NCBI GenBank assembly: GCA_000091205.1
Contig: AP006502.2
Strand: one strand, 5' to 3'
DNA length: 64,000 bases
From: Cyanidioschyzon merolae
Lineage: Eukaryota
This document shows, one piece after another, positions 11,181 to 63,327 of this stretch (position 1 is the stretch's first letter; every line of letters starts with the position of its first letter). A program made the position numbers and the translations under genes. Under the pieces are notes generated by a model. That model was given only the letters and a program-made list of their open reading frames with translations, searched no databases and was not told where the DNA came from.

Positions 11181-11212
<32 letters not shown>

Positions 11213-21963: not shown

Positions 21964-22446
21964 AACCCAGCTGCATAAACGCTGCTTGTACTTCGTTTTC
22001 GCTGATCTAAATTGTTCTGTTCTGTTCTCACGTAGCTTGATAAGTGGACCAGGTGTGATGAAGAGCGACCCCTTGCACATCAACACTGGCCTTCAACGCC
22101 CGGCGTGAAAGTGCTCTATACACAAAGCAACCCCGTTGCCGCTTGCGATCCGGCTAAGAGCTCGTCAAAGTCTTCCTCGGGCACTAAAGTCGGTATCCTG
22201 CGTGCAGATCGCCCAGTTGCACTCACTCCAAAAGTTTTCACGCAATCGTACGGAGCTCGAGTCCTTCCAGTAAAGATACCAAGCAAGCAACCGTCTAGAA
22301 GACTAGGGCGCAATCCGTTTGTGTAAGCGCGGCGGCTGCGGCGACGACGATTGCAGCAACTGCAGCGCTTGCAAAGCCGCCGCAGCGGTACACCCATGTC
22401 AGAATGAAATGGAAGGGGCCGACTGGCTCAAGCAAACAAATTCGAG

Positions 22447-23431
22447 TTATGGTCTCTTCCCGATGTTATGAACATCAGCCTTCGCGGGCTTTTTCTGTGA
22501 CTGCTTCATATTCCTCTCCCTTATCCGTGGCTTTACATACACTGCTCTCGTCCTTCCTTCCCGCTCCGTTGTCAGCTGGAGAAGGATGTTGATGGCAGCG
22601 ATCAAGTCGCGATTTTGCTGGTTCAAGCTGATGTCAACGCATTTCATGCAAATCCGAAAGTCGCAATCAAACCTTCCTTTGCCATTTCTAGCTTCCTTGA
22701 TCGGAGCCTCTTTGCGCCATGAGCAGCAAGGACGCTTCATCGTGGTCGCGTGTTCCAACGAATCCACCACTTCGCCTCCCCATTGCCGGCCCCGCCACGC
22801 ATGAACGCTTGCCCCTTCGCTCGATGCAGGCCCTTGACAGGCACAGAGGGCTCCTCACAATGCCCACCTCCGGTTTGGCGACCGCTGCAGCACTCGACGA
22901 TCACGGGCGTTTCCTGCATAATCAGCCCGGCAAGTGCTGTGTCCACTGCACGCACACGTGCGAGCTCTTCCATACCATACAGGGTTTATGGAATGAGATG
23001 CGGCCCTAGATGAAACGAGCTCCGGAGGGAAGGCTCAGGGCTGAAGAACACGTCGAGAAATTTCAATCTTTGTACGCCCCTTTCGTGCGAAACGGCAACG
23101 CATACTCTGACCAACGCAATCACTGTGATGACTAAAGTGAGCGTCCAAGACCCTTTTCCATGCGAACGGAATAGAAAGGGACCTGCGGGGGTATGGTACC
23201 TTTCGTGAGTTGCACTGTGCTTGCGTCGAATGCCGATTCGCGAAGAGCCTCAGAGAGCAGGGAATTTGTCTTCCATACAGAATCGATTAGTTGGCACGAC
23301 AATTTCAGGGAACGTTTGGCATGAGCAGTTGAAGAAGCCGTCCAGAGACGACGTCGAGTATTTTCACTCGTCAATCCAGCGGCGCGAATTGCTGCGCCTA
23401 AGACTTGTCCTGCAACGGATAAGATCGACAA
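22447..23431 (-). pseudogene. TnpB/Fanzor-like element, family I, diverged copy. Zn-finger remnant and RuvC-III are retained, and upstream frames are broken.
   Basis: ORF 22447-22770(-) reads '...CDFRICMKCVDISLNQQNRDLIAAINILLQ'. ORF 23132-23431(-), 'TRRRLWTASSTAHAKRSLKLSCQLIDSVWKTNSLL', is homologous to 'TRRRSSTACSQAQAASSLDLSSQIIDSVRRMKTPLF' of the young copies. The 3' nucleotide motif 'cgcgggctttttctgtgactg' lies at 22483-22503. Confidence 0.55.
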
Positions 23432-23921
23432 CTTGAAATATGCGTGATTCTAGCACGCTACACGAACGTAGGGAGGAAGCGCAGAGGTCGTCATTTATGA
23501 ATCGAACAACGATATCGCTTAGTTTACGAGCTATTCATTGGGACGTCGCGAATCATCTTCGAGTCGGCGACTGCGCGACTGACAGCGGCATAACGTTGAA
23601 GGCACCGCTCCGAAAAGACGACTAGGAGTCCTGAACGTATGCATGAATTCGTAAACCCTCATTGCTGTGCTTCGAATATCGAGGTTGTACATGTAAAAAC
23701 AGTTCGGGAAAATTCGCTAGGCAGCAACGGAGCAAGCTGCTCAGTGCTTCATTTTAGTTTGTACGGGTGCGGCCAAGTCCTTCCCAGTAGCTCCTTCCGC
23801 AAAAGGCCGCACTGTTGCGTTCAAGTGAGAATCTCTGTCATATTGCGACATCTAATGAAACAGTATGCGCTTTTCCTGTCATGCTTAGTATCTCCATTCG
23901 AAAGCAGTCGCACTGCAGCCA

Positions 23922-29222: not shown

Positions 29223-29611
29223 CAAGCTGAGCGAGTTGTAGGCGCTGACCTCTACGCTCCTCCGTAAACAAGATCTTCGCGTTAAAAAACGTTCTGATCA
29301 GGGTGCGGGCGAGCATCTCTGTTGGCCAGACACATTTACAGATCCCACCGGAAGGAAAGCTTATCGACGTATGGAATTGGTCCCTATATTACATCCATGA
29401 GGTTTTTATGAGGATTGGGGCATTTAGGGCACGCAAGACGCTGTTCTTGTGCGGTGGGGAACCACTGGAGTACCCTCCATAGAAATCATCACTCGTGGAG
29501 CGTGTCCAGACGTCGCCTAGTGTCTGCATGTTCTGAGCAATTTCAGAATAAAGTGGAATTAGTCCGCTTCTAAAAACGTTCCCGCGAATGTTTCTACCTC
29601 TTCACATTGTG

Positions 29612-30590
29612 ATCGACGCCAGCCAGCGCGGGATTTTTCTGTGACTGGTTCTTCTCCCCGCTCTTATCTCCAGCCTTCAATACGTCGTGCTCTCCTATCC
29701 GTCCAGCTCTGTTGCCAGCAGTCGAGGGATGTTGATGGCAACGTTACAGCCACGATTTCGCCGCTTCCTCTTGTTTTCTACGTATTTCATGTACAGACGA
29801 AGGTTGCAATCAAGCCTTTGCTTCGCATTTTCACCCTTTTTCTGTTCAACTTTAATGCGCCCACATAGCGGTGGTAGGTGACTGCGCTCAGGTCCTCACG
29901 AATGTCCACAACGCCTAATCCGCCAAGCGCCGCCCCGTGGTACATGCGCGCTTGCTTTGTCGCCCGGTGAATGCGCTTGACGAGCGCCGGCGGCTCCCGT
30001 AGATGCCCTCCGGTCCTGCGCCCTGTGCCGTGCGCTACGCTCACGCGCTTTCCCTGAGTAGTCCCGCACGCGAGCACTCTGGCAGCTGCACGCGCAAGCG
30101 CTCGCTGTTCCATTTCAGTCGAGGATTGGTGGTGCGCGATGCTTTCCATGTTGAAATAAGTACCTGAAAAAAGCCCAAGATTGGGAACACATCCAGATAT
30201 TTCGATCAGTCTGTTCCGTCCTCGTGCACAACTGAGACGCACTGTCCACTGGAGGCGATCGCTGCGATGATTCAAGTCTTAGAACAAGATTCTTTTCCAC
30301 GCAGACAGAAGATTCGGGGCCCCCCCGGAGAACACTCGAGAGGTGTCATGCTGCCGTTGGGTGCCATTTCATCCATTGCCACAAAGAGAGGAGTTTTCAT
30401 CCTTCGGGCAGAGTCGATTATTTGGGATGACAAGTCCAGTGAACTCGCGGCCTGGGCTTGTGAACAAGCCGTCGAGGAACGACGTCGAGTTGTTTTCATC
30501 GTCACTGGAACGGCGCTCAGTGCTGAACCCACGAGTTGCCTTGCAACAGAGAGATCGAAATTCGGAGAGTGCGTGATTTGAGCATGTTAC
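29612..30590 (-). mobile_element. TnpB/Fanzor-like element, family I, copy A (truncated at both ends; ~98-99% identical to copies B and C)
   Basis: It shares the same set of ORFs as B and C (MNHRSDRLQW..., MEKNLVLR..., MIQVLEQ...). The RuvC-III region reads 'RNRGCNVAINIPRLL' on the minus strand (29725-29757). Its flanks differ from those of B and C. Confidence 0.6.
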
Positions 30591-31845
30591 ATGTAATTAG
30601 AGAATAAGATCGGAGGCTTGTACGTATAAAATGGATACTGACAGCGTTTTTTTCTATCCCCTGCTCGAGTACGTCGAGAATCGTCTCAGTATCGGTGACG
30701 TAAAGTATTCCACTGGAAAGGCCTCGTAGATGTCGCGCCCAAACAGATTACAGAGACTCCTAATGCTACGTACGAATTCGTAAGCCTCTAGAGCAGCATT
30801 TTGAATCTGGAGGCTCTGGATCAAAAATGACATTCCTAAAATATATTGAAAAATAGGAAGAAAGCAAGCTTTTCGGGGCTGCATCTCAATTTGTCAAGGC
30901 TTTAGCGAGCCGGCCAATCGTCAAAACACTACAAAGAGCATCACTCAAATCTTTAGTTAGTGGAGAAAATCGTATGAACAGCAATTTGTAATATTTCCTA
31001 TATTCCGGAAAGTCCCTTTCATTCAATACAAACTCATTTCCAGTTAATTCCATCGAGCAGAATCGAAGAGAGGGCTATATGGGTATTCCCCGCGGAAATT
31101 ATGTGCATAAGAGCCGCTGTTACTGATGTACGACAGAAAATGTGGTCATTGACGTGTGATATATGCACCAGTGAATTCTGAAACACCTGTACCAATACAT
31201 CTATTTTGTTTGCATTTTTTCTATTATTCTAAGCAAAAGCTTCCATCTTTTGGATTGGGCAGAGGCAGCAAAAACCTCTATGCTGTGAATGGTGGCATGG
31301 GAAGAAGAGCTCTAAAAGTGCAAGTCATTCATTCCGCCGTCAACAGCTGGATAAGGCACAGTTCTGATGGACCTAATCGTACACGTCGTGCATCAAAAGA
31401 AACAGTACTTACAAATTCCATAGAGGCGACTCTCTTTTCTTCCTTCAAATCCAGTTCATAATTTCCCAAAAAACACCACCAAAGAAGCCGCAGGATGAAA
31501 AGTTCTTCTACCGCGGATGCAAACGGCGATGAAGAGGCACAGATGTGCAAAGAAGAAAGCACGATCCTGTGATACTCGCGCAACCTATAGCAAATTGTCG
31601 AATTTGAACTAATACGTGAACTCTTATAATTATAATCCTTGACCTGATTTGTGTTCCGCGCATAGGTGAGCGTAATGGAGTGTTTTCTCGTGGTCTATAG
31701 GAGATACATTTGAAGTACGTTCATTTTCAAAAATAGAAAGTCCAAGTGAAAGCTGCTTATGTGGAAATATTGGGTCCTGGAGAGCCGTCATCGCCGATTA
31801 AGTGAGAAAAGAAGTTCTCGCCGACTATAGAGCGAAAAAGAGCAA

Positions 31846-41885: not shown

Positions 41886-43966
41886 GGCACGCTTCCAGCG
41901 CAACAGAGAACCGCCCGCGTATTGACTGCTACGAAGTTCTTTGGCCGTGGAACGCCCGCGGTACTTAAACACAATTTGGCCCCACCGCTGCGTGGAATCG
42001 AGTGCTTGTCCAAAGCGAGGAGCAAGCGATCGAAATTATTATGCAACGTACACTAAAGATCTTAGGCGAGATCCCTGTAACATAGGTTCTTTATTGGATA
42101 GCGAAGGAGGACTGCATTCCTCCTTCTGGTAAGTCATACGACAGTACTCGGATAGCTGAGGAACCCTGAAAGAGAAAAATACGTGCGCTCAGCGCCAAAA
42201 ACCGGATTCTCATAAACAGTTTTGGTTTTACAGTAGAAAACGACCCGTTGATCACAGTGCACAAAGCAAAAGTGACGACGGTAGCCACCAGGGGCGTCTC
42301 TTTTTCTCGACAGCTTGTTCATATAGTTCTGCAAGCACTAGGATATGGTCGCAAAAAGGGTCCAATTTCATGCACGGCCATCTTCCACTGAAATCGCAAG
42401 TACAGATTTCCTGGAACGAAGCGATTGGTTTGAAGCACGGAGAAGTCGCTTTGTTTTTTCAGTCGATTAGACGTCCTTCCGATGAAATGGTCGAAGCCAA
42501 GGTAGGTTCTCGCGGAGCAGAGAACACGTTCTATGTACAATAGATCTCGAGGAGAACGAAGACGTCATCATCGGTTCTAGCTGCAGTGGAGTCATTTGGC
42601 GGCCTCAGTTTCGCTCGCAGAGAATGCTCGTCCACGAGTGCCGACTTTATCGAATCGTTGAAGACTTTTTCCCTGATGTCTGACAATGCCCTTCTGTTTG
42701 AAAATGCGATATTTCACCATTCCCTTTGTGTTCGACGTTTTCCAGACTCTATCGGGGAGTAGAACTGCTTCTCATACCTCCGAAAGCTCAGTGTTTCAAC
42801 CGCATCGAAAGAGTGTTTGCTATCGTGATATGTAATGATCGCTCCTCTGAGAGAATCCCTGAAGTACTTTGCACGGTGACACCAGGACATGCGTCGTTGT
42901 TGTTCCGCAAGTGCTTCTCCCTCTGAAAAGATCCTCATCTATGGGCAAAAAGAAGTGAGTTCATTTTCAAAAATAGAAAAATGAAGGAAAGTTATGGATA
43001 TGTAAGTCGAAGATACTGGAGGCCCGGCGTTGCCGGGATCCAACAAACGAAAAGAGTGCCGAGCCCAGAGGAACAGGAAAAGACGAAGAAGCAAAAGGGG
43101 CGCTAGATGTCGAGAGCGACACGATAGGGGACACTACGACGAGATTGTACTGAAAGCCTATCTTGTACGCCATATCAAGGATTCGCACTATCAAAAATTA
43201 AAAAAGCCATCAGAAACCGTAGCCCGTCCAACTCCAGATTCGTCGACGAAGAGACATCACCCAGGAGCACGAATGGAGATTCTGTGATCCGTGCTGTTCT
43301 GGGGCTTATCAACCCAACAGAAAATGTATCAGAGATATAAAATGGTGCTATCCCCTCATCCTGCTCTATTTCGTGTTCCTGAACCGAGAACTACAACGCA
43401 AGAAGGAGATGGAGCCGTGTGGGAAAAAATCAAGAGTCGTTGGAACGGAAGGCTTTCCTAATGGATAAGCGCTTCAACGTCGTTCCGTTATGCAACATCA
43501 AGTGGCACGTTGTGGCAACCATCGCAAGCGTCCTTTACGGCATCATGGAGATCTGTCCGGAGTTCGATGTAAGCAGGGATGAATTTACGGGTGAAAACAG
43601 GGAAACTCTTTGGAAGCGCACCTTCGATTTCAAACGTCTCAACACGAGCAAGTGAAAGGTATGCTCGGGGACGATCGAAAGCGATGGGGTATCTAAATGT
43701 GGACACTATTGGCACTTTAAATTGGATCGTTCTATTTTGTCTTCGGCTTCGCCCCCGCCGAAACGTGAAGACACAAGGAGATGGATCCTGCAACGCAGGA
43801 GGTGCAGGAGAACGACTTTGTCATCGGCGTGGAGCCCTGAAATACGAATGTCATGACCATCGCTGCTCCCATGCGTGAGGAAGATGGCACTGACGGCAAC
43901 TTACGACAAAAAGACATCCGTCTTTTAAAGTTCTCAAGAACGAGATATTATTGAGAATCGGGAATT

Positions 43967-44718
43967 ATGAATGCATGGAAAAAAAGTGAGGCATGGAGTG
44001 CAGGAGTGAAGGAGCATCGGGAAGCGATCAGCCGGGTGACGAGCCGCGGAGCGCACTTTCAAACTTCTCGTGAATTCATGAAAATTCGCGCTGCTCATGT
44101 CGCGGAGCTGTGGAGAGAGTATACAAAGTCCCGGTGGGCTCGTCAGCATATGAATCTGTATTGCTGGAAACAGCGTGCATTCGCAAAATTCTTCAATGCG
44201 TTGTGCGCTCTCACAGTTGATAAGAGTCAAAGGCTCGAAATAGCATAAACGCAGGGCCCTGTGTGCCCAGAAAAAGGAGCACACAAGCTTTGTCGAAATG
44301 AACATTCATGGATGGCACCCAGTGTCTTGTTCCGGTACGGATAGATGAATTCCGAACGTCATACGTGCACCATGAGCTGGGGTGTACAATTCAGAAGGTC
44401 GAGATGGAGCGAAGGCAGAGGAGCCCTGATGAGATAGAAAAGTACGGAGAGCTGAAAGATCATCGAACGGCGCAGAGGGCGCGAGTTCGAGGAATCCCTG
44501 CGTGAATGAGTTCCACCGGAGGCAATAAGCCAATGGAGTTCGTGAAGCGAGACTTAAACGCCGCGATCAATATCAGAAGATGTGCCCTGCTGAAGACGAG
44601 ACCTGCAGAGCTGACGCGATCCAAGTTTATGGGGCAGCCCCTTATGCCCGATACGTGCAGGAAGCAGCTGAAGCTGATGGCAGGGAGCCGATCAGAAAAG
44701 GCCGGGAGGCGCCTGTGA
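43967..44718 (+). pseudogene. TnpB/Fanzor-like relic, family II (Zn-finger region degraded; RuvC-III and tail retained)
   Basis: 'VRIDEFRTSYVHHELGC' resembles V-x-P-x-YTSQ-x-C-x-x-CG with its Cys residues lost. After a frame change comes 'EFVKRDLNAAINIRRCALLKTRPAELTRSKFMGQPL...KLMAGSRSEKAGRRL'. Confidence 0.5.
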
Positions 44719-44790
44719 GGGGGTGTGAATTTACCCCACATGGTCCTGGGACATTTTTTCTTTTACTGAGGATACTATATTTGTTTCAAA

Positions 44791-46135
44791 TTAAAATGGT
44801 CCGTTAAGCTGCGCGCACTGTTTCTGCACTTCGATTTTTCCGAACACTTTTCGATATACAGCCTCATCATCCAATGTACTGCGACCGGGGGCTCCGCTTC
44901 ATCTGTTCTTTAGGGCTCTCTGTCGTCATCTCGAAGTGTCGACTCCGGCTCCGTGCCGCTGGAGCTCGTTCAGCCACACCAACTGGGATGGTTCGCGGCG
45001 CCCCACGGGCAAGAGTTCGTGAAAGTACTGATATCACAACTTAATTTTTACTTAAGAGCTTCCACTCTATTTCTTTCCCCGACTTGCGCCATGCTCAAAT
45101 CACGCACTCTCCGAATTTCGATCTCTCTGTTGCAAGGCAACTCGTGGGTTCAGCACTGAGCGCCGTTCCAGTGACGATGAAAACAACTCGACGTCGTTCC
45201 TCGACGGCTTGTTCACAAGCCCAGGCCGCGAGTTCACTGGACTTGTCATCCCAAATAATCGACTCTGTCCGAAGGATGAAAACTCCTCTCTTTGTGGCAA
45301 TGGATGAAATGGCACCCAACGGCAGCATGACACCTCTCGAGTGTTCTCCGGGGGGCCCCCGAATCTTCTGTCTGCGTGGAAAAGAATCTTGTTCTAAGAC
45401 TTGAATCATCGCAGCGATCGCCTCCAGTGGACAGTGCGTCTCAGTTGTGCACGAGGACGGAACAGACTGATCGAAATATCTGGATGTGTTCCCAATCTTG
45501 GGCTTTTTTCAGGTACTTATTTCAACATGGAAAGCATCGCGCACCACCAATCCTCGACTGAAATGGAACAGCGAGCGCTTGCGCGTGCAGCTGCCAGAGT
45601 GCTCGCGTGCGGGACTACTCAGGGAAAGCGCGTGAGCGTAGCGCACGGCACAGGGCGCAGGACCGGAGGGCATCTACGGGAGCCGCCGGCGCTCGTCAAG
45701 CGCATTCACCGGGCGACAAAGCAAGCGCGCATGTACCACGGGGCGGCGCTTGGCGGATTAGGCGTTGTGGACATTCGTGAGGACCTGAGCGCAGTCACCT
45801 ACCACCGCTATGTGGGCGCATTAAAGTTGAACAGAAAAAGGGTGAAAATGCGAAGCAAAGGCTTGATTGCAACCTTCGTCTGTACATGAAATACGTAGAA
45901 AACAAGAGGAAGCGGCGAAATCGTGGCTGTAACGTTGCCATCAACATCCCTCGACTGCTGGCAACAGAGCTGGACGGATAGGAGAGCACGACGTATTGAA
46001 GGCTGGAGATAAGAGCGGGGAGAAGAACCAGTCACAGAAAAAGCCCGCGCTGGCTGGCGTTGGTGGCATCGGGAAGAGATCCGAAGCTGGGTTGATTCGC
46101 CCTCGTCAGCCGAGTGCAATCTTTCAATTTTTTGT
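44791..46135 (+). mobile_element. TnpB/Fanzor-like element, family I, copy B (full ~1.34-kb unit, about 99.5% or more identical to copy C)
   Basis: It has the same ORF set as A and C. The RuvC-III region 'KRKRRNRGCNVAINIPRLL' lies at 45916-45948. The 3' region 'ccagtcacagaaaaagcccgcg' lies at 46029-46050. Ends were defined by where identity with C stops. Confidence 0.65.
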
Positions 46136-47683
46136 CTCGCATGGTAAGGGGCTGTGTGGAGCGGCGAAGAAATGAGAGACGCTTCGTGACGCGCCCCGTT
46201 GCCTACAGTGCTAGGCGAATTATGCAGCCGCATACGCGCGATTTGTGAGCAAACATGCCCGTACATTCAAAATCATTCTGCGTATAGTTTATCTTAGACT
46301 GAGCCCGTACCCCTCTGGGCATACTGAGCTGAGATGCGCTCTGTCTATCATAGTACAGATCATGGAAAAAGCCGTGTCATGTGCTGCATGCAAAAAGGTA
46401 CTTTCTGCAGGAATCTTTGTTTTCTGATGCAGCGCGGTTTGAGCTTCGTTTTCAAATGGAACATTTAGTTGTAAAATATTAAGGACAACAGAGGGCCTGG
46501 CTTCATACGCGTTACCGAAGCCATTAAGGCCTAAATCCTGATGCGAAATTGCTTCTGGCCGTTTCTTGGAAAACGAACGGACTTCGAATGCTATTTTTCT
46601 GCATGTTCTTCCATTATGAGACAACAACCTTGGGACTTATCGTGCCCCTTATGTCTGCTACATGGTTTGCTATTCCAGGAGAGCCCCAACAGGAAAAATG
46701 TGCGTGAAATTCCACCGCGAATCTTTTGTGAGGCCTTGAATCATAGGGGCGCCTAAAATACAGAGTCTACGCTGCTTAAAATCCGAATGAAAATATCCTG
46801 CGCCCCTGGGAACGAGAGTGCTTTCCCGAAAAGAGGGGCCCTCTGGAGCGATTTCTTTGTTCTCTTCGATTGACAATTCTTGGAATGTGTGGATATTTTG
46901 AACGTATACGCAAAATCACGGGGAGTTACGCCCAACAAACTTGCACGCGTGAATAGTGGATGAGGTTCATTAAGGCGTAAATTTTTGGTCTTCGAGGTTC
47001 CCCTGAGCGCCTATTCCCAATCATGAAGTAAAGAATTTACATATCTCTCCTCACGCATCTAGCACTGTAAGTACACTCGCAACTTGTTTCCGAATGTATG
47101 ATCAGCCACTCTGAAGCTAGTCATGAAGAGTTCATTCGCAATGTCTGGCGCATTTTCAAGCCTTTCAAGGTCTGATACCCTCTAAATGATATGCCATGAG
47201 GAAGACGCGTCAAGTAGACTAGCACTTCCTGCGCAGTGATAGCCCACCTATTTGATTCACAAAAGAACCTTTGAGCGAAGTGAAAAATACATCGAGCTTC
47301 CGAGAAGCAGGTTCCGTACTCCGAAACGCAAACTTCAACAATGCCACGGTAATTGCCATATGGATGCCGACTATGTTGCGTGCAAGGCTCAGGAACTTGA
47401 TACAATCAAACATTTTCCACCAGGAAGAGCCTACACTCCAACCTTGTATCCAAAGCCTCACGCAGTTTGAAGAATTTCTTGTAACGATGCAACAATCGTG
47501 CTTCAGCTATTTTCTTCGTGTGAGGCCCGCAAGTATAGAAGTCAGCCCTCGCTCCCTTACATTCTCTCGGTAAAACCATTATTGAAGCTAGTTGCTGTAC
47601 GAAACAGGTTCCCAAGCAGAAGCTACACCTATAGGTGGAACTTTTAGAGTTAAGCGCTCGGTGGTGAAACCGCAACTCCCAGC

Positions 47684-48097
47684 CTAGACGTTGAAGGACT
47701 CACCACAGCCGCAGGTTCCCTTCGCATTCGGGTTCCGGAAAACAAACTCACTGGCCAGGTCGTTTTCAACGTAATCCATTTCTGTGCCAACTACGTGAAG
47801 CATAGCTCTTGGGTCTACGAGTACTCGAACCCTCCCGTCCGCAGAAACGACTTCCTCTTCGAAACGTCTCCTCTCCTTCGCGTAGTCGAGCTGGTAAGAC
47901 AGCCCATTGCAGCCGCGCTGCTTCAGGGACAGTCGAACACCGTAAGACTCGGGATGTTTTTCGAGAAGGGACCGCAAACGCTTCGCTGCGGCTTCCGTTA
48001 TAGTCATAGCGGCTCTGCTGCGACACATGGTCAGAAACAGTTGTGTGGAAATCAAAACTTTGATTGCAATCTTTCGCTTCGCTTCCGGATATGACAC
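47684..48097 (-). CDS. IscA/HesB (A-type carrier) iron-sulfur cluster assembly protein
   Basis: 'ITEAAAKRLRSLL...GVRLSLKQRGCNGLSYQL' and the C-terminus 'GTCGCGESFNV' are present. Confidence 0.8.
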   Translation of the reverse strand: MSYPEAKRKIAIKVLISTQLFLTMCRSRAAMTITEAAAKRLRSLLEKHPESYGVRLSLKQRGCNGLSYQLDYAKERRRFEEEVVSADGRVRVLVDPRAMLHVVGTEMDYVENDLASEFVFRNPNAKGTCGCGESFNV

Positions 48098-49110
48098 GTC
48101 GTCGCCTCGTCACGTTCAGCAAGGCTTGTACCATTGTACCCACATATGAGTGCTTCAACCGGTGCACTTACTGTAATTTTCGAAAAGATGCTTCGGGTTG
48201 GATATCACTCTCCAAGGCGGCTGAGATTGCGCGAACTAACCGGGACGCTGGAGCAACGGAAGCTCTCGTTCTTTCCGGAGAAGTCCACCCAAAAAGTTCC
48301 CTCAGGAGGCACTGGATAGCACACACTGTCGAAATCTGCAAAGTTGCCATCCAGAATGGCTTGCTGCCGCACGTAAACGTAGGACCACTCAGCTGGGGTG
48401 AAATGAAAGAGCTCACAAAGTTCAGCGTGAGTATGGGTCTGATGTTGGAACAAGTCACAGATAAGTTAATGGCAAGCGTGCACCGAAGAGCACCTTCGAA
48501 AGACCCCTCACTTCGCATCGAACAGTTGCATCTTGCGGGTCAGCTGAAGATACCTTTCACAACAGGAATTCTTGTCGGTCTCGGAGAAGAAGAATGTGAT
48601 TGGAAAACCTCCCTGAATTGTATAGCAGCGGTGCACAACAAATACGGGCATATCCAAGAATGCATCATACAGCCCTTTCGTCCTGGTGATCGTGGTTACA
48701 TTTCGGGCCCGAAATTGAATGCATTCCATAGCGAGGCCCTTCCGTATGTTGTGTCACTCGCTCGCAAGATACTACCGACAGAAATCGCTATACAGATTCC
48801 ACCGAATTTAGTACTGTCTGATACAGACCGCCGAAAGGGACTAGAGCTCGTGTTCCGGTGCCTCGAAGCAGGGGCGTCCGATCTCGGAGGTATTTCCCCT
48901 GTCGATGAAGTTAATCCGACCTATGCGTTTCCTAGTATTACATGGCTGAGAGAAGTTCTTTTACTAGAGGGGTTCGAGCTTATGCACCGTTTGCCTATCT
49001 ATGAGCAATATATTCCATGGATTCAGAAAGCAGAGAAATTCGAACATCTTCAAAGACTCTTTCCCGTATACAAGCAAGGCAACTCAGCCAAATCAACCCC
49101 GAAATCGTGA
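48064..49110 (+). CDS. Radical-SAM protein of the CofG/CofH (FO synthase) family, single-subunit size
   Basis: 'VTFSKACTIVPTYECFNRCTYCNF' has a C-x3-C-x-Y-C-x-F cluster, and 'DAGATEALVLSGEVHP' follows. These match CofG/CofH. MqnC/E and ThiH/HydG are lower-probability alternatives. Confidence 0.5.
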   Translation: MQSFASLPDMTRRRLVTFSKACTIVPTYECFNRCTYCNFRKDASGWISLSKAAEIARTNRDAGATEALVLSGEVHPKSSLRRHWIAHTVEICKVAIQNGLLPHVNVGPLSWGEMKELTKFSVSMGLMLEQVTDKLMASVHRRAPSKDPSLRIEQLHLAGQLKIPFTTGILVGLGEEECDWKTSLNCIAAVHNKYGHIQECIIQPFRPGDRGYISGPKLNAFHSEALPYVVSLARKILPTEIAIQIPPNLVLSDTDRRKGLELVFRCLEAGASDLGGISPVDEVNPTYAFPSITWLREVLLLEGFELMHRLPIYEQYIPWIQKAEKFEHLQRLFPVYKQGNSAKSTPKS

Positions 49111-49321
49111 TTTTTTGACAAGCTCTGATAGGAGACCTTCACAAATGAGCCCACGTATCTATAACGGCTCGCAAAATATGTGCTGCAAAGGGCGACGTGA
49201 ACATTGCTAACTAGGCGAAGATTGTTTTTCGTAGAGGGTTGGCTGAAATTAGTCAAGTTGCAAAATTTTCGAAGATTTTTACCTTTTCAGAGATGGTTTC
49301 CGTCACTTCACCAGTGTAAGC

Positions 49322-50665
49322 CAACAAATGAACGATCGCACTCGGCTGACGAGGGCGAATCAACCCAGCTTCGGATCTCTTCCCGATGCCACCAACGCCA
49401 GCCAGCGCGGGCTTTTTCTGTGACTGGTTCTTCTCCCCGCTCTTATCTCCAGCCTTCAATACGTCGTGCTCTCCTATCCGTCCAGCTCTGTTGCCAGCAG
49501 TCGAGGGATGTTGATGGCAACGTTACAGCCACGATTTCGCCGCTTCCTCTTGTTTTCTACGTATTTCATGTACAGACGAAGGTTGCAATCAAGCCTTTGC
49601 TTCGCATTTTCACCCTTTTTCTGTTCAACTTTAATGCGCCCACATAGCGGTGGTAGGTGACTGCGCTCAGGTCCTCACGAATGTCCACAACGCCTAATCC
49701 GCCAAGCGCCGCCCCGTGGTACATGCGCGCTTGCTTTGTCGCCCGGTGAATGCGCTTGACGAGCGCCGGCGGCTCCCGTAGATGCCCTCCGGTCCTGCGC
49801 CCTGTGCCGTGCGCTACGCTCACGCGCTTTCCCTGAGTAGTCCCGCACGCGAGCACTCTGGCAGCTGCACGCGCAAGCGCTCGCTGTTCCATTTCAGTCG
49901 AGGATTGGTGGTGCGCGATGCTTTCCATGTTGAAATAAGTACCTGAAAAAAGCCCAAGATTGGGAACACATCCAGATATTTCGATCAGTCTGTTCCGTCC
50001 TCGTGCACAACTGAGACGCACTGTCCACTGGAGGCGATCGCTGCGATGATTCAAGTCTTAGAACAAGATTCTTTTCCACGCAGACAGAAGATTCGGGGGC
50101 CCCCCGGAGAACACTCGAGAGGTGTCATGCTGCCGTTGGGTGCCATTTCATCCATTGCCACAAAGAGAGGAGTTTTCATCCTTCGGACAGAGTCGATTAT
50201 TTGGGATGACAAGTCCAGTGAACTCGCGGCCTGGGCTTGTGAACAAGCCGTCGAGGAACGACGTCGAGTTGTTTTCATCGTCACTGGAACGGCGCTCAGT
50301 GCTGAACCCACGAGTTGCCTTGCAACAGAGAGATCGAAATTCGGAGAGTGCGTGATTTGAGCATGGCGCAAGTCGGGGAAAGAAATAGAGTGGAAGCTCT
50401 TAAGTAAAAATTAAGTTGTGATATCAGTACTTTCACGAACTCTTGCCCGTGGGGCGCCGCGAACCATCCCAGTTGGTGTGGCTGAACGAGCTCCAGCGGC
50501 ACGGAGCCGGAGTCGACACTTCGAGATGACGACAGAGAGCCCTAAAGAACAGATGAAGCGGAGCCCCCGGTCGCAGTACATTGGATGATGAGGCTGTATA
50601 TCGAAAAGTGTTCGGAAAAATCGAAGTGCAGAAACAGTGCGCGCAGCTCAATGGACCATTTTAAT
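49322..50665 (-). mobile_element. TnpB/Fanzor-like element, family I, copy C (full ~1.34-kb unit, inverted relative to B)
   Basis: Its 162-aa, 104-aa and 61-aa ORFs are identical to those of B. The RuvC-III region is identical to B on the minus strand. Confidence 0.65.
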
Positions 50666-52309
50666 CTCTCACCGAGCTTGAACCGTCGAGAAATTCTAGC
50701 TGGAAGCGCGAAATTTGCGCGCGCGTTTGCATAGATTTTCGATCGCGATCTGAATTGTTCTCTTTATTTGGGAGCAATGTTTCATAACGTGCTTAGGCTC
50801 CTTACAAGTGTCGTGGCAGAAAACCGAACGGTCCAGTTCTGTTTGACGGGATTCTCGAACAACAATATCGCCGGAAGTTCGAGGGATTTGCATTCAGAAC
50901 AGAATATGTATTTCTTACGATTTCTTTGCTGGCAGCTTCGGGACCAGTGAGGTGGTTGGTTAATTCCAGTGAATCACTAATGTACAGCGAACCTTTATCG
51001 TTATATACTTGCACAGGAAAGCGTTTTCCTGTATTTACACTCGATTCACTAACCTCAATGGTTTGCTGTGCCATTCCATGCCAGAACCATGCTCCAGGCC
51101 AGAATACCATAAGTCTCATCTGGGTCAATTACTCTCTCTCACGGCAATACTTTAGCGTTTCAGGAGAATGGATTGACTGAGTATTGAATGATTCCCTGGG
51201 AAGTTAACTCGACTCAAAGATGCTGAACGCTTCCAATGCACAAAACATTTCCGGACTTTGATCGAGGCGCTCACTTCTCGTTGCGGAGAATATTTGAGCG
51301 AATTTTTGCTGGTAGGAGCACACCCGAGCAAGTCTCTCACCTAGCTTTGCACTCCCATTTGACGTCTGCTCAGCTTGCTGGGGATCATCTGGTGAATCAG
51401 GCTCGTTTCACTTGTTTCCCCAGCAGCAATTTCAGTTTGCATTCTGCGCTCGTAATAAGTTTACGCCGCCTTGAATTCAATGGTGGTACTCGTAGAGAAT
51501 CATCTCTGCAATCAGTTCTCGCGCTCGTAGAAGGAACAGAAGAGCATCTTTGTACGCTATAACTCCAAGATCGTCACTGTCTACCTTCGAAACACAAGGC
51601 ATATCTGCCATTTCTTTTTTTGACTCCACTGAAGAAAAATGGCGAATGAACGCTTCCTGCATCCGTACAATCGACTGCATTGCGTTCCCCAGCGCAGGTC
51701 AACTAACCTCTAACGAAGATCGTCTTCAAGAGCCAGTTGGACTTTCAGGTCCTCTCTGGATCTAACCTCCACAGCATGCCACTCAGATGGATACGGTGCT
51801 CCAACCGTCGCTATCGGTTGTAACCCCGTCATTCCAAACGTTCGTGTGCCTCCTGACGCCCATCATGCTTCACTCTAGTATAAAGCCCTCGAAAATTTGC
51901 ACACTATCATCTGGATTCTGTTCAACTCTTTCATTCCGCTCTCTTGATTTTGAGATAAGGCAACCGCGCGATGTATTTCTCTTCATTTATCTTGGACGGT
52001 TGAAAATCAGCATCGTTAGTTGAGTCAAGTTTAAGTTTCACAAAGTGCATGCAGCCTGGTCTTCCGTCGGTCTCCATTCTCCCTGCGTACTCCTTACGAT
52101 TTCCTGCCCTGTAAGGCGAAACGTCGAATCAGCTCTACCCATGATCTTCGGAAAGCTGTTCGAGTGACCCGTGCTCGCTGCCAGAGACCGGCCGTAGCCC
52201 ACTGAGTGGAACGTATAGTACAGAGGAGTCTGCTGTGATTAGTGGGCGTTGAAGTGACGAACGAGGGCCGCTTCGAGCAGACGCTTACGGAGTCGAGTGC
52301 ACCCGCATT

Positions 52310-52620
52310 GGTGGACGGAGTCTGCTTCGCTCTCGAGGGCTCTCTTGAGGCAAATATAATGGGGCGAGAGATGCAAGCAAGGCAGGTACCCCGTTAACGC
52401 CATGGTATGGATAAGACTTGTGCCGATCCTCTCGAGGGCTCTTTTGAGGCGAATATAATGGGGCGCGGAATGCAAGCAAGGCAGGTATCCCGTTGACACC
52501 ATCGTATGGATAAGACTTGTGCCGATCCTCTCGAGGGCTCTCTCGACGCGAATATAGTGGTGCGCGAATTGCAAGCAAGGCAGGTATCCCGTTGACGCCA
52601 TCGTATGGATAGGACGTGTG
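52310..52620. repeat. Tandem repeat, ~93-bp unit with at least 3 copies
   Basis: 'tgccgatcctctcgagggctct[c/t]t[t/c]gaggc[a/g]aatataatggggcg[a/c]g[a/g]gatgcaagcaaggcaggta[c/t]cccgtt[a/g]ac[g/a]ccatggtatggataagacttg' repeats. It sits in an AT-rich, gene-free stretch. Confidence 0.8.
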
Positions 52621-54682
52621 GCGATCCGAGTCCGAGATCCACTCGATAGGCGCGGGCGATCTGACGCGAGTCTCGCTCTCGGTGCGATATCGCTTCCGGC
52701 GTCGTTGGCACCTCGATCCCATCTGTCACCATCAGCTTGTCATTTGCCTCCTTCGGCACTCCAAGAAACCGTTCTATCAGTCACCACTTTTTTGGGCCAG
52801 TAAGGTGGCTAAAACGGTTCTAACTTCCAAACGGTGAACCGATTGAAGCACTCGAGATTGTCTCGCGTATCGTTTCATTTTTCAGGTTGATTCGATATTT
52901 TTCTCTTTCGTCATAGATATTCCGATTGCTGATGTGATTTCATGACGTACAAATGTTTTCTCGCAAGCGTGCGTGCAGATCTTGTATACTGCGATCAGGC
53001 CGTGTTTCACGTTCTGTCGCGAACGCTGGTAGAAGAACGAAGGATTTGTACAAAAATCCGTGTGGAATGAGGGCAGCTCGCAATGCGCATCCGGAACTTG
53101 CACGAGCATTTGCATGACGAGCTGTGCCATGGCAAGAGAAGCTATACTAGCCTTCCTCGGGTAAAAGGCTACACAATATCTGATGGGGTCGTGCATGTCA
53201 CATGTAGGAAAATTCTTCCTGTTAAAATATTTTAGTCGGTTGGCTTCGCAGAGATTCCAGACCAAACGCTCCGACCAATTGTCTTTCCTGTGCATTCTTG
53301 TCTTACACTTGGTAGAATCTTTCTCTCCATTTTCTAGCAGTATTTCGCCTTCTCTTGCGCTCAGCTTGCTGGCTTCATTGTCGTCGGTAAACTCAACATC
53401 CGTTTTTCCGCCTGATTCATACGTACCGGATGGACGGTGAGATCAAGGCTCGCTTATTGTGAGTAAATAAGATTGCATCTTTTTTCCCACATATAACTTT
53501 ACATCATCTGTTCCCTAGCGACTTTGCCCATGGAATGGGATGTGCGTTTTGGTTCCCTCGCGCGCTCGCAAAGAGAAGCAATAGTTTGTTTCAGGACAAT
53601 AGAAAGAAGAGAATGATTTGTCTACGAGCGTTTTCACGAGCACGATAGACTCGTTCTCGCAGATGGCGTCTCACTATGTGAGACGAACATGCCCTTTGTG
53701 TGATAGAAATTCGCGTTTCAGTGCGAGATCGATAATATACAGTTAATCGTGCGACAATCTCACAATGTGGCGTAATTTTTTTGCTCATCCGTTTCTTTTC
53801 AATATCGTTCATATTAACGGTACATAAACTTCACATCACTTCTTTTCTTTGGTAGCTTTTCGTAGAGAACGTAGGGAATGGAATGGATCGATGGGGGAAG
53901 ACGCGTGTAGGTACAGTTTCGCAAATTCAGGCATGAGTGCATGACGTTCAGAACAAGGGCTAAACGAAGGGAAGCTCATCAACCTTTGAACCATAGAGCG
54001 ACTGACAGACGTAATGCCATTTTTCGCAGGCTCGTAGTGACAGCATACCCTCTCCCGAAACCTCTCTCCAGTTTGCAGGATGCATTTCATTTGTTGGTTA
54101 CGAGCGAGAAAATCAAAAATAAACAAAAAGAATGCGCTAGTCAATGTGCAACAGAACTCACTGTTCTGCGCACAACCACTCTGAGCGTAACGAACACGAT
54201 TCAATCGTGTAAAGCGTGTTTTCCGGGTGCTCCCACCATCGCACGATCTCATACCAAGTTACTTGAGGAGCGTACTTAATAGATCGTTTCCCCATACCCA
54301 GACACTGTCGTATGTCACAACGGCATACCAGTGCGCTTAGGAGTCAACTGACGACAAGTCAGGGAGTATACGCGAAGGGAGCCACACCGAGTGGCTCAAA
54401 ACCGGCTCCCGCGCCAATGCGCGTAGCTCTTGTACAATGGCTGCATAACCGCTTTTCATAGAAAACCAAAATGAAACCTAAGGCGTGTTGCAGCGACCAG
54501 CAAATCATCAATACTTTTTGGGCCGATTGGCGAGGGCGACTCCATCGACCGTTACACGAATCTCCGAGGCGGCGGATCCGCGACGCCTGCGGCTGCGATT
54601 TTATCTTCTAAATAATTTCGCATCCGCACAGTTCTAGCTCACAGTTGCCGATAGTAGTTTCCGGCTCCTTAGTTTCGTTTAG

Positions 54683-61247: not shown

Positions 61248-61439
61248 GCAGCAAAGCTAGTCCTTCTTTCCTAGTCGCATAGAAAACTCTGCGGCATTGA
61301 TCCTAATTTGCTAGTGCGCGTTGTACCCTCCAATACCGTGGCGGCTGCAGGCAGATGTGACTTCACACCCATATTAGACTAAACTGCAACAGGCTTTCAA
61401 ACAAAGCTGCGCAAACTAAAGTTTGATTTTGTTCCCGCT

Positions 61440-62300
61440 CTAATAAACACTAGCCTTTGTGGCTTGTTCTGCGATTGGGTTTGCTCCCTCTAACTTATTT
61501 CGGGCTTTGAATGCACTGGTCTATCCTTTTCCTCAAAATCCATCGTCTGCAGTTCGGGGATATTGATGGCAGCGTTGAGGTCCCGATTTCGCTGCTTCCC
61601 GCAATTGTCGACTCAGTCGATGCACCGGGCGGTAGATAAGTTCAGAGCTTCGCTCTCCATTTTCACCTTCTTTATGTACAGCGTGGAGCGCATATCGCAG
61701 AGTGACATATGGCTGCAGTCAGGTATTCAAGCATTTCCGACATACCTCATTCTTCTGCGCAAGGTACCCTACGGCGCGTGCAGGCATGGTTCATCGCTCC
61801 ATCATGCCATTGACGGGCATAGAAGATGCCCTCGGTGCTCTCTTCCGTTTCCGCGTATGGTGCCGTGCGCTACGAGCATGGGGGATCCTCCCTGTGAGAA
61901 CTCTGTTCTCTGGATACGCAAGCGCGCACTGTTCCATAAGATAGAGGATTCATGGAACACAATATCGTACATGATGGAACGCGTACTCGAAGGAATATCC
62001 GGGCTGGATATCACTCTGCGAAATTTCGATACGACTAAGCTACCCTCGTGCAAAATGTCACGTACTGCCCACTGCAAGCGGTCGCCGCGTGGACTGACGT
62101 CCAAGTCCGAGACCTTTTTCCATGTAAACAAAAGAGACGAGAAAAGCAACGAGCAGATATTGAGTGCCATTTCTTCGATACCGAAGAAGAGAGGAGGACG
62201 TATTTTCGAATCGAATGGTTTCTTTGATGTGGCAAGTTTAGTGGACTTTTGGAATGAGCTTGCGAAAAAAGTCGTCTAGGGACAGCGTCGAGTGTTTTAC
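61440..62300 (-). pseudogene. TnpB/Fanzor-like element, family I, diverged copy with an intact RuvC-III motif
   Basis: The minus strand reads 'VDNCGKQRNRDLNAAINIPELQ' at 61559-61624. ORF 61802-62170(-), 'GDRLQWAVRDIL...VAHGTIRGNGREHRGHL', is homologous to 'SDRLQWTVRLSC...VAHGTGRRTGGHL' of B and C. The 3' motif 'ccagtgcattcaaagcccg' lies at 61501-61519. Confidence 0.55.
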
Positions 62301-63327
62301 GTCTTCATTCTAATGGTGCGAGTTGCTGCGCCCCGGGTCGGCTCGAAGCACAGAGGTCCAAAACGTGAGGAATATGTGAATTGAGCATGATAAGTGTGAG
62401 AAAAGGAGAGAGGCGGAGGTTTGTACCCATGAACTAGATGATGATGACGGCTATTCTACGAACCTGAATTCGACGGTATCGCGAAGGATCTTAATTACGG
62501 TGACATCCCGGTTTCCAGCAGCAAGGAGCGGATAGAGCTACTCCGAAACGACGACCGGGAATCCAAATACTCCGAATCAATCCATAAGCCCCTACTGCGG
62601 GACCTGGAGTTCCGAAGCCGCACATCCATAAATGGTCGAAAACATCGCAAGTCAGGAACAGAGCGGGCAGTTCAACTTTTCATTTTAATCTGACAGGGGC
62701 TAGGCCAGTCTCTGGATGAATCACAAATAGCAAGGAGACATCCTAGCAAGAGGAGAGCATCATTTGCAGAAAGTTCTGCGAAGATATTAAGGCGCGCATG
62801 CAGAAGTCCCCAGATATCCGGAACGTACACGAGCACCAGTTCGTCCACGAAGCGTTCATGACGAATCCTGGTCAGTTTGGAATATGCAAAGAAATATTCT
62901 AGCACACGCCAATCACTCAATGCGTTTTGCACCCAATTCAGCCTCTGGAACTCACGCCCTCGTTGGACACCCCACAGACATTCTGTCTCCATGCGACATC
63001 CGCAGATGCGTCAGCAACGACTCAGCGAGCGTCCGCAGTAGGCTCAATGCCACCTGCATCGCTGGATCTTTCAAGTTGCCGTTGTTTAGGACCAATGAGC
63101 CGGCCTCCAAGGCTGCGTGAATCGCGAGCACAGGGGAACAGTCCCTATGAGTTTCCGCGCAAACCGCAGTCGGTGTACGAGCGTACTTGAAGATGATTAC
63201 CATTCATGAGAAGACCCTCATGCAACGCTCCTCTGTGGCGACAGTAGACATGACAGCTCCTCGCATGACTGCATCAGAACCGGGTATATTCTTTGGCAGC
63301 GCCTTACCCTAGTATGTACCCAGGTCT

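What the first reader, a model, noticed from the sequence alone, without database searches (positions are those of the whole stretch)
46136..49321. IscA and CofG-like gene pair bracketed by inverted, near-identical 1.34-kb elements
Copies B (+) and C (-) are essentially identical and in inverted orientation. Between them lies a 3.19-kb segment holding the divergently arranged IscA (47684-48097 -) and radical-SAM CofG-like (48064-49110 +) genes. This geometry is a substrate for recombination-mediated inversion. It also resembles a composite element that could carry the enclosed genes. The 5' ends of both genes sit within a few tens of bp of each other.
Basis: seen in the sequence. Interest (0 to 1): 0.5.

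Follow-up and report, generated by a model that had tools for sequence, protein, structure and literature searches.

The report
Dead transposon copies bracket IscA–CofG
The two inverted 1.34-kb repeats around the IscA and CofG genes are dead copies of an old DNA transposon in a red-alga nuclear genome, kept identical by gene conversion; they could flip the segment between them but do not carry the genes.

Summary
Arms at 44790-46132 (+) and 49323-50665 (-) are inverted and enclose 3,190 nt holding divergent IscA and CofG genes. The window is nuclear DNA of a Cyanidioschyzon-type red alga.

The arms are two of five copies in the window of a ~1.36-kb non-coding family; at least two more lie elsewhere. 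A consensus shows a truncated IS630/Tc1-mariner transposase gene joined out of frame to the 3' end of a Fanzor1/TnpB-like nuclease gene, with ~16-nt imperfect terminal inverted repeats. All copies are full of stop codons. Independent lineages are only 55-62% alike.

B and C are identical over 1,311 interior bases, but their terminal 20-25 nt are diverged, the 3' ends about as much as unrelated copies. A third copy, A, shares only a 989-nt core. This points to gene conversion, not recent transposition.

IscA-CofG sits next to LSM in two relatives that lack the elements, so the "composite element" reading fails. A flip of the 3.19-kb spacer is plausible but untestable here, because every short-read assembly breaks in the arms. 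Three metagenome contigs show the junction expected from an inversion between A and B. That is suggestive, not proof.

This is an ordinary repeat landscape of modest interest.

The parts
44785..46142 (+). Copy B (left arm) of the ~1.36-kb dead transposon family. The tract identical to C is 44807-46117.
   Evidence: nhmmer with the family profile, 1537 bits. Repeat finder. Mismatch map.
49312..50670 (-). Copy C (right arm), inverted relative to B.
   Evidence: Its outer junction is confirmed by contigs L056-L061.
45117..45629 (+). Remnant of an IS630/Tc1-mariner (DDE_3) transposase gene inside B. It is truncated just after the 'YSP' motif, before the third catalytic residue.
   Evidence: tblastn of the consensus piece. 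Pfam DDE_3 E=8e-6 and HTH_33. NCBIfam IS630 E=8e-8.
45632..45996 (+). Remnant of the C-terminal RuvC-II / zinc-ribbon / RuvC-III ('RD.NAAINI') part of a Fanzor1/TnpB-like nuclease gene inside B. It is in a different reading frame from the transposase part. In B the catalytic Asp is lost (RGCNVAINI).
   Evidence: Pfam PF07282 E=8e-5. Alignment to the C-terminus of PUl-1 Fanzor1, E=5e-6 and 5e-7.
46143..49311 (.). Unique spacer between the arms. This is the finding's segment.
   Evidence: It has no internal inverted repeats.
47684..48028 (-). IscA-type Fe-S assembly gene (114 aa from the ATG).
   Evidence: Pfam PF01521. 82% identical to the Cyanidiococcus IscA. Called as 114 aa on contigs.
48029..48090 (.). 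62-nt head-to-head intergenic region shared by IscA and CofG. Presumed bidirectional promoter (inference).
   Evidence: Coordinates of the two ATG-started genes. The same divergent pair lies 71-91 nt apart in relatives.
48091..49110 (+). CofG (FO synthase subunit 1, radical SAM), 339 aa.
   Evidence: P0001 is 99% identical.
29533..30895 (-). Copy A of the family. Only the core 29598-30586 is ~99% identical to B/C; its 5' 300 nt and 3' ~80 nt are as diverged as unrelated copies.
22390..23763 (-). Copy D of the family, an old lineage ~60% identical to B.
61363..62694 (-). Copy E of the family, an old lineage ~59% identical to B.
42953..44715 (+). Degenerate, internally deleted copy of the CMe-1A Fanzor1 element of Cyanidioschyzon merolae, lying directly upstream of B.
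   Evidence: BLASTN to the published consensus: 77% over 1446 nt. tblastn with CMe-1 Fanzor1, E=1e-108. Sequences taken from PMC3627910.
51976..52266 (-). Short fragment resembling CMe-1 Fanzor1, outside arm C.
   Evidence: tblastn E=2e-5.

Best explanation
The window is nuclear DNA of a Cyanidioschyzon-type red alga. The two arms are old, dead copies (B and C) of a ~1.36-kb non-autonomous DNA transposon. The family looks like an internal-deletion derivative of a mariner/IS630-type element that carried a Fanzor1 (eukaryotic TnpB) gene. What survives is the 5' two-thirds of the transposase gene joined out of frame to the last ~120 codons of the nuclease gene, between ~16-nt imperfect terminal inverted repeats.

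The copies inserted long ago on either side of a pre-existing, conserved, divergently transcribed IscA-CofG gene pair (insertion history is inferred). Their present near-identity is not due to recent transposition. It comes from non-reciprocal homologous recombination (gene conversion) between neighbouring copies. That process has homogenised 1,311 interior bases of B and C, and a 989-nt core of a third copy, A, 14.5 kb away. The element termini stayed diverged.

The same recombination, when resolved as a crossover, would invert the DNA between inverted copies: the 3.19-kb IscA-CofG spacer for B x C, or the 14.5-kb segment for A x B. That step is inferred for B x C and only suggested by contig junctions for A x B. 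The elements do not mobilise the enclosed genes.
For: Organism and synteny: the best named CofG relative is Cyanidiococcus (59%). The gene order RING-Sacchrp_dh-RHD3-LSM-IscA-CofG matches Cyanidiococcus L015, and Sacchrp_dh-RHD3-LSM-IscA-CofG matches the shorter MAG locus L016. The C. merolae CMe-1A consensus matches 43238-44642 at 77%, close to the ~80% reported for genomic copies (PMC3627910).

Family: nhmmer finds 5 full-length copies in the window. Two further loci, X and Y, occur in metagenome contigs. Pairwise identity between lineages is 0.53-0.62 in a star-like pattern.

Non-coding state: every copy has stops in all frames. There is no 3-base periodicity.

Identity: the majority consensus hits DDE_3 (E=8e-6) and PF07282 (E=8e-5), IS630 (E=8e-8), and the C-terminus of PUl-1 Fanzor1 (E=5e-7). 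The P0121 ORF, from another copy of the family, carries the same transposase-'SP' junction. The terminal inverted repeats appear in the alignment of copy ends.

Gene conversion: B and C are perfect from 44807 to 46117 but differ at 11 of the last 25 nt and 6 of the first 22 nt of the element. A versus B is 56% in the 5' part, the same as any unrelated pair, but ~100% in the core. The flanks of B and C are unrelated.

Ancestral gene pair: relatives have the pair and no repeats or elements at the locus.

Inversion hint: L012, L020 and L039, from three samples, join ..30586 to 45090->43141, ->42901 and ->43371 respectively.
Against: Both protein-domain assignments score below the curated Pfam and NCBIfam cut-offs, and they rest on a reconstructed consensus. 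No intact autonomous parent was found. No target-site duplication could be recovered. Conversion between copies that are now ~60% alike cannot start from scratch, so the model needs continuous concerted evolution since the copies were young, or an unusual event. No read-level evidence for either orientation of the 3.19-kb spacer exists here. The three A-B junction contigs could be wrong path choices by the assembler through a 1-kb, three-copy repeat. One other contig, L049, departs from the window at 39220 without any repeat known from the window at the join, so chimeric contigs or further structural variants do occur in these data.
Confidence: 0.8

Rival explanations
1. C is a recent transposed or duplicated copy of B. 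The pair then forms a composite, Tn10-like element able to move IscA-CofG.
For: The identity tract coincides almost exactly with the element's limits, and the flanks are unrelated.
Against: The terminal inverted-repeat regions are exactly where B and C differ. There is no intact transposase in any copy or in the databases searched. Copy A is a mosaic that transposition cannot produce. The gene pair is syntenic in relatives that lack the elements.
Confidence: 0.04
2. The arms are an assembly artefact: a repeat that was collapsed, over-polished or mis-joined.
For: Perfect identity over 1.3 kb is what over-polishing can produce. The window also carries a 1-nt frameshift in Sacchrp_dh relative to all contigs.
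Against: Independent assemblies from many samples reproduce all four arm junctions and the arm-specific end variants.
Confidence: 0.02
3. The 1.36-kb units are functional non-coding genes or regulatory modules kept by selection, and the inverted pair insulates or regulates IscA-CofG.
For: Copy lengths are similar (1332-1374 nt) despite ~40% divergence. Some blocks are well conserved.
Against: The best-conserved block is simply the RD.NAAINI codons of the dead nuclease gene. Conservation is nearly uniform along the element, with lag-1 autocorrelation of 0.07. The 3' 230 nt show no covariation; the RNAalifold covariation term is unfavourable. Rfam gives no hit. Relatives manage without the elements.
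Confidence: 0.05
4. The structure arose as one inverted segmental duplication (palindrome formation), not as two separate insertions.
For: Palindrome geometry. A CMe-1-like fragment is present on both outer sides.
Against: Sensitive BLASTN and tBLASTX find no homology between the outer flanks or within the spacer. The element ends themselves are diverged.
Confidence: 0.05

Closest known systems
Mariner-type elements carrying Fanzor1, such as PUl-1 of Pythium ultimum (Bao & Jurka 2013, PMC3627910)
   Same: Same component types in the same order: an IS630/mariner-like transposase gene followed by a Fanzor1 gene, between short terminal inverted repeats. The C-terminal nuclease part aligns with PUl-1 Fanzor1 (E=5e-7).
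   Different: Here only a ~1.36-kb deletion derivative survives. The transposase is cut before its third catalytic residue. The nuclease lacks everything upstream of RuvC-II. The two parts are out of frame, and every copy is decayed. No TA target-site duplication could be recovered. The transposase part shows only profile-level similarity, not pairwise similarity, to the PUl-1 transposase (E=0.93).
CMe-1A Fanzor1 family of Cyanidioschyzon merolae (~150 copies, ~80% identical to consensus; PMC3627910)
   Same: Same host lineage and same kind of old, dispersed Fanzor1-bearing repeat. A CMe-1A relic (77% to consensus) abuts arm B.
   Different: The arms are a different family. Outside the RD.NAAINI motif they show little similarity to CMe-1. 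They also carry a transposase remnant, whereas CMe-1A is reported to lack terminal inverted repeats and any transposase.
Large palindromes and inverted repeats kept identical by arm-to-arm gene conversion, with invertible spacers: human Y-chromosome palindromes and the plastid inverted-repeat flip-flop (from my own knowledge)
   Same: Near-perfect inverted arms, a unique spacer with genes, and a sharp drop in identity at the tract edge. Crossover resolution would invert the spacer.
   Different: The arms are tiny (1.3 kb). They derive from transposon copies rather than from a duplicated gene block. Inversion isomers have not been shown here.
Bacterial composite transposons (Tn5, Tn10)
   Same: Two inverted copies of an insertion-sequence-like element bracket cargo genes.
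   Different: This is a eukaryotic nuclear locus. The flanking copies are dead and their ends are diverged. The cargo is ancestral at the site.

Membership tests
Composite transposon | The flanking copies supply, or respond to, an active transposase. | tested here: not met
   All copies have stops in all frames. Domains are visible only in a reconstructed consensus. No intact relative was found among 5.8 billion proteins.
Composite transposon | The outer termini of both copies are intact and matching. | tested here: not met
   B and C differ at 6 of the first 22 nt and 11 of the last 25 nt of the element, while the interior is identical.
Composite transposon | The cargo moved with the element, so it is absent from or elsewhere than the orthologous site in relatives. 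| tested here: not met
   The order LSM-IscA-CofG is conserved in Cyanidiococcus (L015) and in a MAG (L016). Neither has elements or repeats there.
Composite transposon | A target-site duplication flanks the whole unit. | tested here: inconclusive
   No convincing direct repeat is seen at 44785 and 50670. Old duplications would have decayed.
Tc1/mariner-IS630 DNA transposon (non-autonomous derivative) | Homology to a DDE_3/IS630 transposase. | tested here: met
   Consensus against Pfam DDE_3: E=8e-6, 26.1 bits, cut-off 28.6, plus HTH_33. NCBIfam IS630: E=8e-8, profile positions 87-238 of 299. P0121, an ORF from another copy: DDE_3 E=7e-6. These are significant but below the curated cut-offs.
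Tc1/mariner-IS630 DNA transposon (non-autonomous derivative) | Terminal inverted repeats. | tested here: met
   The 5' consensus CAAATTAAAATGGAAC matches the reverse complement of the 3' end, CAGAATGAAATGGAAC, at 13 of 16 positions. This is visible in copies D, E, X and Y.
Tc1/mariner-IS630 DNA transposon (non-autonomous derivative) | TA target-site duplication. | tested here: inconclusive
   Flanking dinucleotides are not consistently TA. The copies are ~40% diverged, so the signal may be lost.
Tc1/mariner-IS630 DNA transposon (non-autonomous derivative) | Complete DDE/D catalytic triad. | tested here: not met
   The transposase frame ends at '...TEYSPGG', just before the expected (D/E)LNPIE residue.
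Fanzor1 / TnpB nuclease | C-terminal motif [TS][TS]-x-x-(C4 zinc finger)-x(5,50)-RD, as defined in PMC3627910. | tested here: met
   Consensus: '...EHLTAVKCHRC...RLCMKC...RNRDFNAAINI'. P0122: 'EHLTTMKCYKC...CESCHSC...RNRDFNAAINI'. PF07282 E=8e-5, 23.1 bits against a 26.3 cut-off. PUl-1 Fanzor1 C-terminus, E=5e-7.
Fanzor1 / TnpB nuclease | N-terminal half with the RuvC-I Asp (a full nuclease). | tested here: not met
   Everything upstream of RuvC-II is replaced by the transposase remnant. In B and C the RuvC-III Asp is also mutated.
Fanzor1 / TnpB nuclease | Associated guide (omega) RNA at the 3' end. | tested here: inconclusive
   RNAalifold on the last ~230 nt of 6 copies gives no supported structure; the covariation term is +0.75.
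CMe-1A element (the relic next to arm B) | Nucleotide and protein homology to the published CMe-1A consensus. | tested here: met
   77.1% over 1446 nt and 77% over 291 nt. tblastn E=1e-108.
Palindrome maintained by arm-to-arm gene conversion | An identity tract that ends inside older homology, plus mosaic third copies. | tested here: met
Palindrome maintained by arm-to-arm gene conversion | Both spacer orientations are present in a population. | not testable with these tools
   All contigs carrying CofG are shorter than 5 kb and end in the arms. Contigs from the outer flanks also end in the arms.
CofG (FO synthase subunit 1) | Radical-SAM domain and close similarity to named CofG proteins. | tested here: met
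   PF04055. 50-55% identity to many cyanobacterial proteins named CofG. The partner CofH was not looked for.

The most novel reading that the evidence does not exclude
The conversions that keep A, B and C identical might not be ordinary background recombination. They could be triggered by a still-active Fanzor nuclease encoded elsewhere in the genome; intact CMe-1A Fanzor1 genes are reported in C. merolae. Its guide RNA would cut at or near family ends, giving a homing-like repair that copies one element over another, as TnpB is reported to do for bacterial IS elements (from my own knowledge; not checked in the literature here). As a by-product it would generate polymorphic inversions such as the A-B junction seen in three samples.
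Probability: 0.04. Interest if true: 0.75.

Novelty: new member of a known kind. Interest (0 to 1): 0.3.

Why it matters
This matters mostly as a clean-up. A structure that looks like a gene-carrying composite element is really two decayed transposon relics flanking an ancestral gene pair. It adds a mariner/IS630-Fanzor1 deletion-derivative family to the known Fanzor1 repeats of Cyanidioschyzon. It also gives a compact example of concerted evolution between dispersed relics in a small red-alga genome, a lineage in which homologous recombination is efficient (from my own knowledge; not checked here). If the A-B junction seen in environmental contigs is real, such relics drive structural differences of 3-15 kb between strains. 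That would be relevant for comparing the reference strain with wild populations and for genome engineering near these loci.

Tried and rejected
- Rfam at gathering threshold over the whole window gave 0 hits, and ARAGORN found 0 tRNAs. The arms are not known RNA genes.
- Pfam on the raw ORFs inside the arms found nothing. The domains appeared only after building a consensus.
- A test for coding periodicity between lineages found none.
- phmmer of the consensus pieces and of P0122 against PDB sequences gave no meaningful hit.
- Consensus RNA folding of the 3' end found no supported structure.
- BLASTN and nhmmer of the family against the orthologous loci of Cyanidiococcus and the MAG found nothing, and those loci have no self-repeats.
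- A search for a larger palindrome, comparing outer flanks and the spacer against itself, found none.
- Target-site duplications were not recoverable.
- Exact-protein look-ups failed for the window's CofG, for a 76-aa ORF in the 5' part of A, and for the Ras gene.
- Look-ups via LSM, RING and the outer flank of C returned only contigs that stop at repeat edges. Neither the reciprocal A-B junction nor either orientation of the 3.19-kb spacer could be observed.
- The idea that the unit is a single natural transposase-nuclease fusion protein was rejected, because the two parts lie in different frames even in the consensus.
Full report
**Observation.** The repeat finder reports inverted arms at 44790-46132 and 49323-50665. 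They are 1343 nt long and 3190 nt apart. A third copy at 29598-30586 is 99% complementary to 45090-46078. BLASTN gives 99.5% over 1348 nt for B against C. A global pairwise alignment shows no difference at all between 44807 and 46117; every mismatch lies in the outermost ~20-25 nt.

The spacer holds an IscA-type gene (Pfam Fe-S_biosyn, E=3e-17) and a radical-SAM gene. The closest relatives of the radical-SAM gene are proteins named CofG / FO synthase subunit 1. Taking ATG starts, the genes are IscA 47684-48028 (-) and CofG 48091-49110 (+), 62 nt apart. These lengths agree with gene calls on metagenome contigs for both genes, and for IscA also with Cyanidiococcus (its CofG is 345 aa).

**Where the window comes from.** The window has no Rfam or tRNA hits. 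GC content is about 52%. It carries ordinary eukaryotic housekeeping genes: BRCT, Ras/Rab, CDC50, protein kinase, LSM, RHD3 and CGI-121. The best named CofG relative is Cyanidiococcus yangmingshanensis at 59%. Gene order from RING through Sacchrp_dh, RHD3, LSM and IscA to CofG matches that genome, and the shorter MAG locus shares the order from Sacchrp_dh onward.

The published consensus of CMe-1A, a Fanzor1 element of Cyanidioschyzon merolae, matches 43238-44642 at 77% over 1446 nt. That paper reports ~150 genomic copies at ~80% to consensus (PMC3627910). So the window is most likely C. merolae or a very close relative. Metagenome contigs 99.4-99.9% identical to the window occur in many samples. 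They differ from the window at fixed amino-acid positions, for example three in RHD3. They therefore represent related wild populations, not the same strain.

**The arms are real.** Independent contigs reproduce several junctions:
- spacer to B and spacer to C (L003, L004, L013, L014);
- left flank to B (L034);
- right flank to C (L056-L061).

**What the arms are.** A sensitive self-comparison and a profile search show five full-length copies of one ~1.36-kb family in the window:

| Copy | Coordinates | Strand |
|---|---|---|
| D | 22390-23763 | - |
| A | 29533-30895 | - |
| B | 44785-46142 | + |
| C | 49312-50670 | - |
| E | 61363-62694 | - |

A motif scan of metagenome contigs recovered two more loci, X and Y, in the same samples. 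Independent lineages are only 53-62% identical to each other, in a star-like pattern. Every copy has stop codons in all frames. There is no codon periodicity.

The key came from a small ORF upstream of B that ends in '...RDLNAAINIRR', the RuvC-III signature of TnpB/Fanzor nucleases. The best-conserved block of the arm family encodes the same motif. I built a majority consensus of five lineages. It reads in one frame as an IS630/Tc1-mariner transposase:
- Pfam DDE_3, E=8e-6, plus HTH_33;
- NCBIfam IS630, E=8e-8, profile positions 87-238 of 299.

That frame stops at '...TEYSPGG', just before the expected third catalytic residue. The consensus then continues in another frame as the C-terminal RuvC-II / zinc-ribbon / RuvC-III region of a Fanzor1-type nuclease ('VIVAYGTG...GGHRGEPSVPVK...EHLTAVKCHRC...RNRDFNAAINI'):
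- Pfam PF07282, E=8e-5;
- pairwise E=5e-6 for the consensus and 5e-7 for the metagenomic fragment P0122, both against the C-terminus of PUl-1 Fanzor1 (PUl-1 sequence from PMC3627910).

An ORF from another copy (P0121, 27 member sequences) carries the same transposase-'SP' junction, so the fusion is ancestral to the family. The two ends form an imperfect ~16-nt inverted repeat, 13 of 16 in consensus.

The simplest reading is an internal-deletion, non-autonomous derivative of a mariner-type element that carried Fanzor1. That architecture is described for PUl-1 and others (PMC3627910). The derivative amplified once and has since decayed. No intact parent was found. No target-site duplications could be recovered. 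A test for a conserved RNA structure in the 3' ~230 nt was negative.

Directly upstream of B, 42953-44715 is a degenerate, internally deleted CMe-1A Fanzor1 copy. Smaller CMe-1A pieces lie at 401-601, 7057-7259, 24760-25204, 31666-32109 and 51976-52266. The whole 42-54.6 kb stretch is transposon debris around two real genes. This fits the repeat expansion reported for Cyanidioschyzon: 12.7% of the genome against 0.6% in Cyanidiococcus (PMC9812998).

**Why B and C are identical.** If C were a fresh insertion copied from B, the terminal inverted repeats would be identical too. Instead B and C differ at 6 of the first 22 and 11 of the last 25 element positions. At the 3' end this is about the divergence seen between unrelated family members. 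The 1,311 nt between those ends are perfect.

Copy A is a mosaic. Its first 300 nt are 56% identical to B, the same as A or B against D, E, X or Y. Its last ~80 nt are 45% identical to B. Its 989-nt core is about 100% identical. The flanks of B and C show no homology.

This pattern is what gene conversion between neighbouring paralogues produces, not transposition or segmental duplication. Core polymorphisms shared between contigs assigned to different copies point the same way, although collapsed assemblies could mimic this. Copies now ~60% alike could not begin to convert each other. I therefore infer continuous concerted evolution since the copies were young, with the converted tract eroding from its edges. 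This step is an inference.

**Is the gene pair cargo?** No. In Cyanidiococcus (L015) and in a second relative (L016-L019) the same divergent IscA-CofG pair lies next to LSM, 71-91 nt head to head. No family copies and no self-repeats are detectable within the ~6-10 kb flanks fetched. The elements arrived around an ancestral pair.

**Inversion.** For the 3.19-kb spacer nothing can be said directly. In all 76 sample blocks the contig carrying CofG is shorter than 5 kb. Contigs entering from either outer flank also stop inside the arms.

For the related inverted pair A(-) and B(+), the evidence is as follows.
- Three contigs from three samples run from A's left flank through the core into B's 5' part and on into B's left flank in reverse.
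  - L012 is from JGI sample 3300054705.
  - L020 is contig Ga0080006_1152659 (31.5 kb).
  - L039 is from JGI sample 3300050357 (26.6 kb).
  - In window coordinates they join ..30586 to 45090->43141, ->42901 and ->43371.
- This is the junction expected if 30.6-45.1 kb is inverted in those populations.
- No contig shows the window's arrangement across A. All other contigs stop at the core edges.
- The window's arrangement is the ancestral one, because LSM is adjacent to IscA in both relatives.

I rate this as suggestive only. The core is a 1-kb, three-copy repeat, so assembler path choice could create the join. One unrelated contig, L049, also departs from the window with no repeat known from the window at the join. 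The reciprocal junction could not be retrieved.

On a longer time scale, the block IF2B-NAC-p248-kinase-CGI121-GT2 is inverted relative to Cyanidiococcus. One breakpoint lies between CofG and 54.7 kb, the stretch that contains C. The other breakpoint lies outside the available sequence.

**Verdict.** What is there is an ordinary, already-known kind of thing. Decayed Fanzor1-associated DNA-transposon relics, of a family not described in the one Fanzor paper I read (Repbase could not be checked), are homogenised locally by gene conversion and flank an ancestral gene pair. Interest is modest. The only lead worth following is whether these relics cause real 3-15-kb inversion differences between the reference strain and wild populations.

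Noticed in passing
window 38998 (Sacchrp_dh gene, 37857-39211, minus strand): The window lacks one C that is present in metagenome contig L034. This splits a gene that is an intact 451-aa ORF on every contig and in Cyanidiococcus. It is either a strain-specific frameshift or a base error in the source assembly.
   Followed up: partly
L049 1-2122, joined to window 39220: One JGI contig replaces the RHD3 side of the Sacchrp_dh promoter with 2.1 kb encoding a P-type ATPase that is not in the window. It is either a chimeric contig or a real rearrangement. It shows that contig joins in these data are not always collinear with the window.
   Followed up: partly
window ~33087 and ~37200: All seven RING-bearing contigs end at exactly 33087. 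Six contigs, three from each side (L034-L036 and L050-L052), end near 37180-37305. This implies further repeats or polymorphic junctions at those points.
   Followed up: no
window 49.1-54.7 kb, and L033 1-3469: Relative to Cyanidiococcus, the block IF2B-NAC-p248-kinase-CGI121-GT2 is inverted. One breakpoint lies in the stretch between CofG and the Myb gene that contains arm C. The other breakpoint is beyond the available sequence.
   Followed up: partly
window 401-601, 7057-7259, 24760-25204, 31666-32109, 42953-44715, 51976-52266: Several decayed pieces of the C. merolae CMe-1A Fanzor1 element. Two of them (24.8-25.2 kb and 31.7-32.1 kb) share the same internal deletion, joining roughly consensus positions 820-970 to 2850-3020.
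   Followed up: partly
window 16782-17040 (3' end of the BRCT gene): A 133-nt unit is present about twice in the window but once in the three ENA contigs from samples ERZ272xxxxx (L040, L042, L043). This is a copy-number polymorphism at the end of a coding region.
   Followed up: no
window 52330-52627 and 11094-11401: A 99-nt tandem repeat (3 copies, 89% matches) lies in the non-coding stretch right of arm C. Repeats of 81 and 96 nt, rich in CAG, lie at 11094-11401, overlapping the ORF at 10701-11582.
   Followed up: no
L027 7679-9053 and L032 5157-6485: Two further family copies, X and Y, lie outside the window. Each starts about 115 nt after the stop codon of a long same-strand ORF (1811 aa and 682 aa). 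This may be coincidence or an insertion preference.
   Followed up: no
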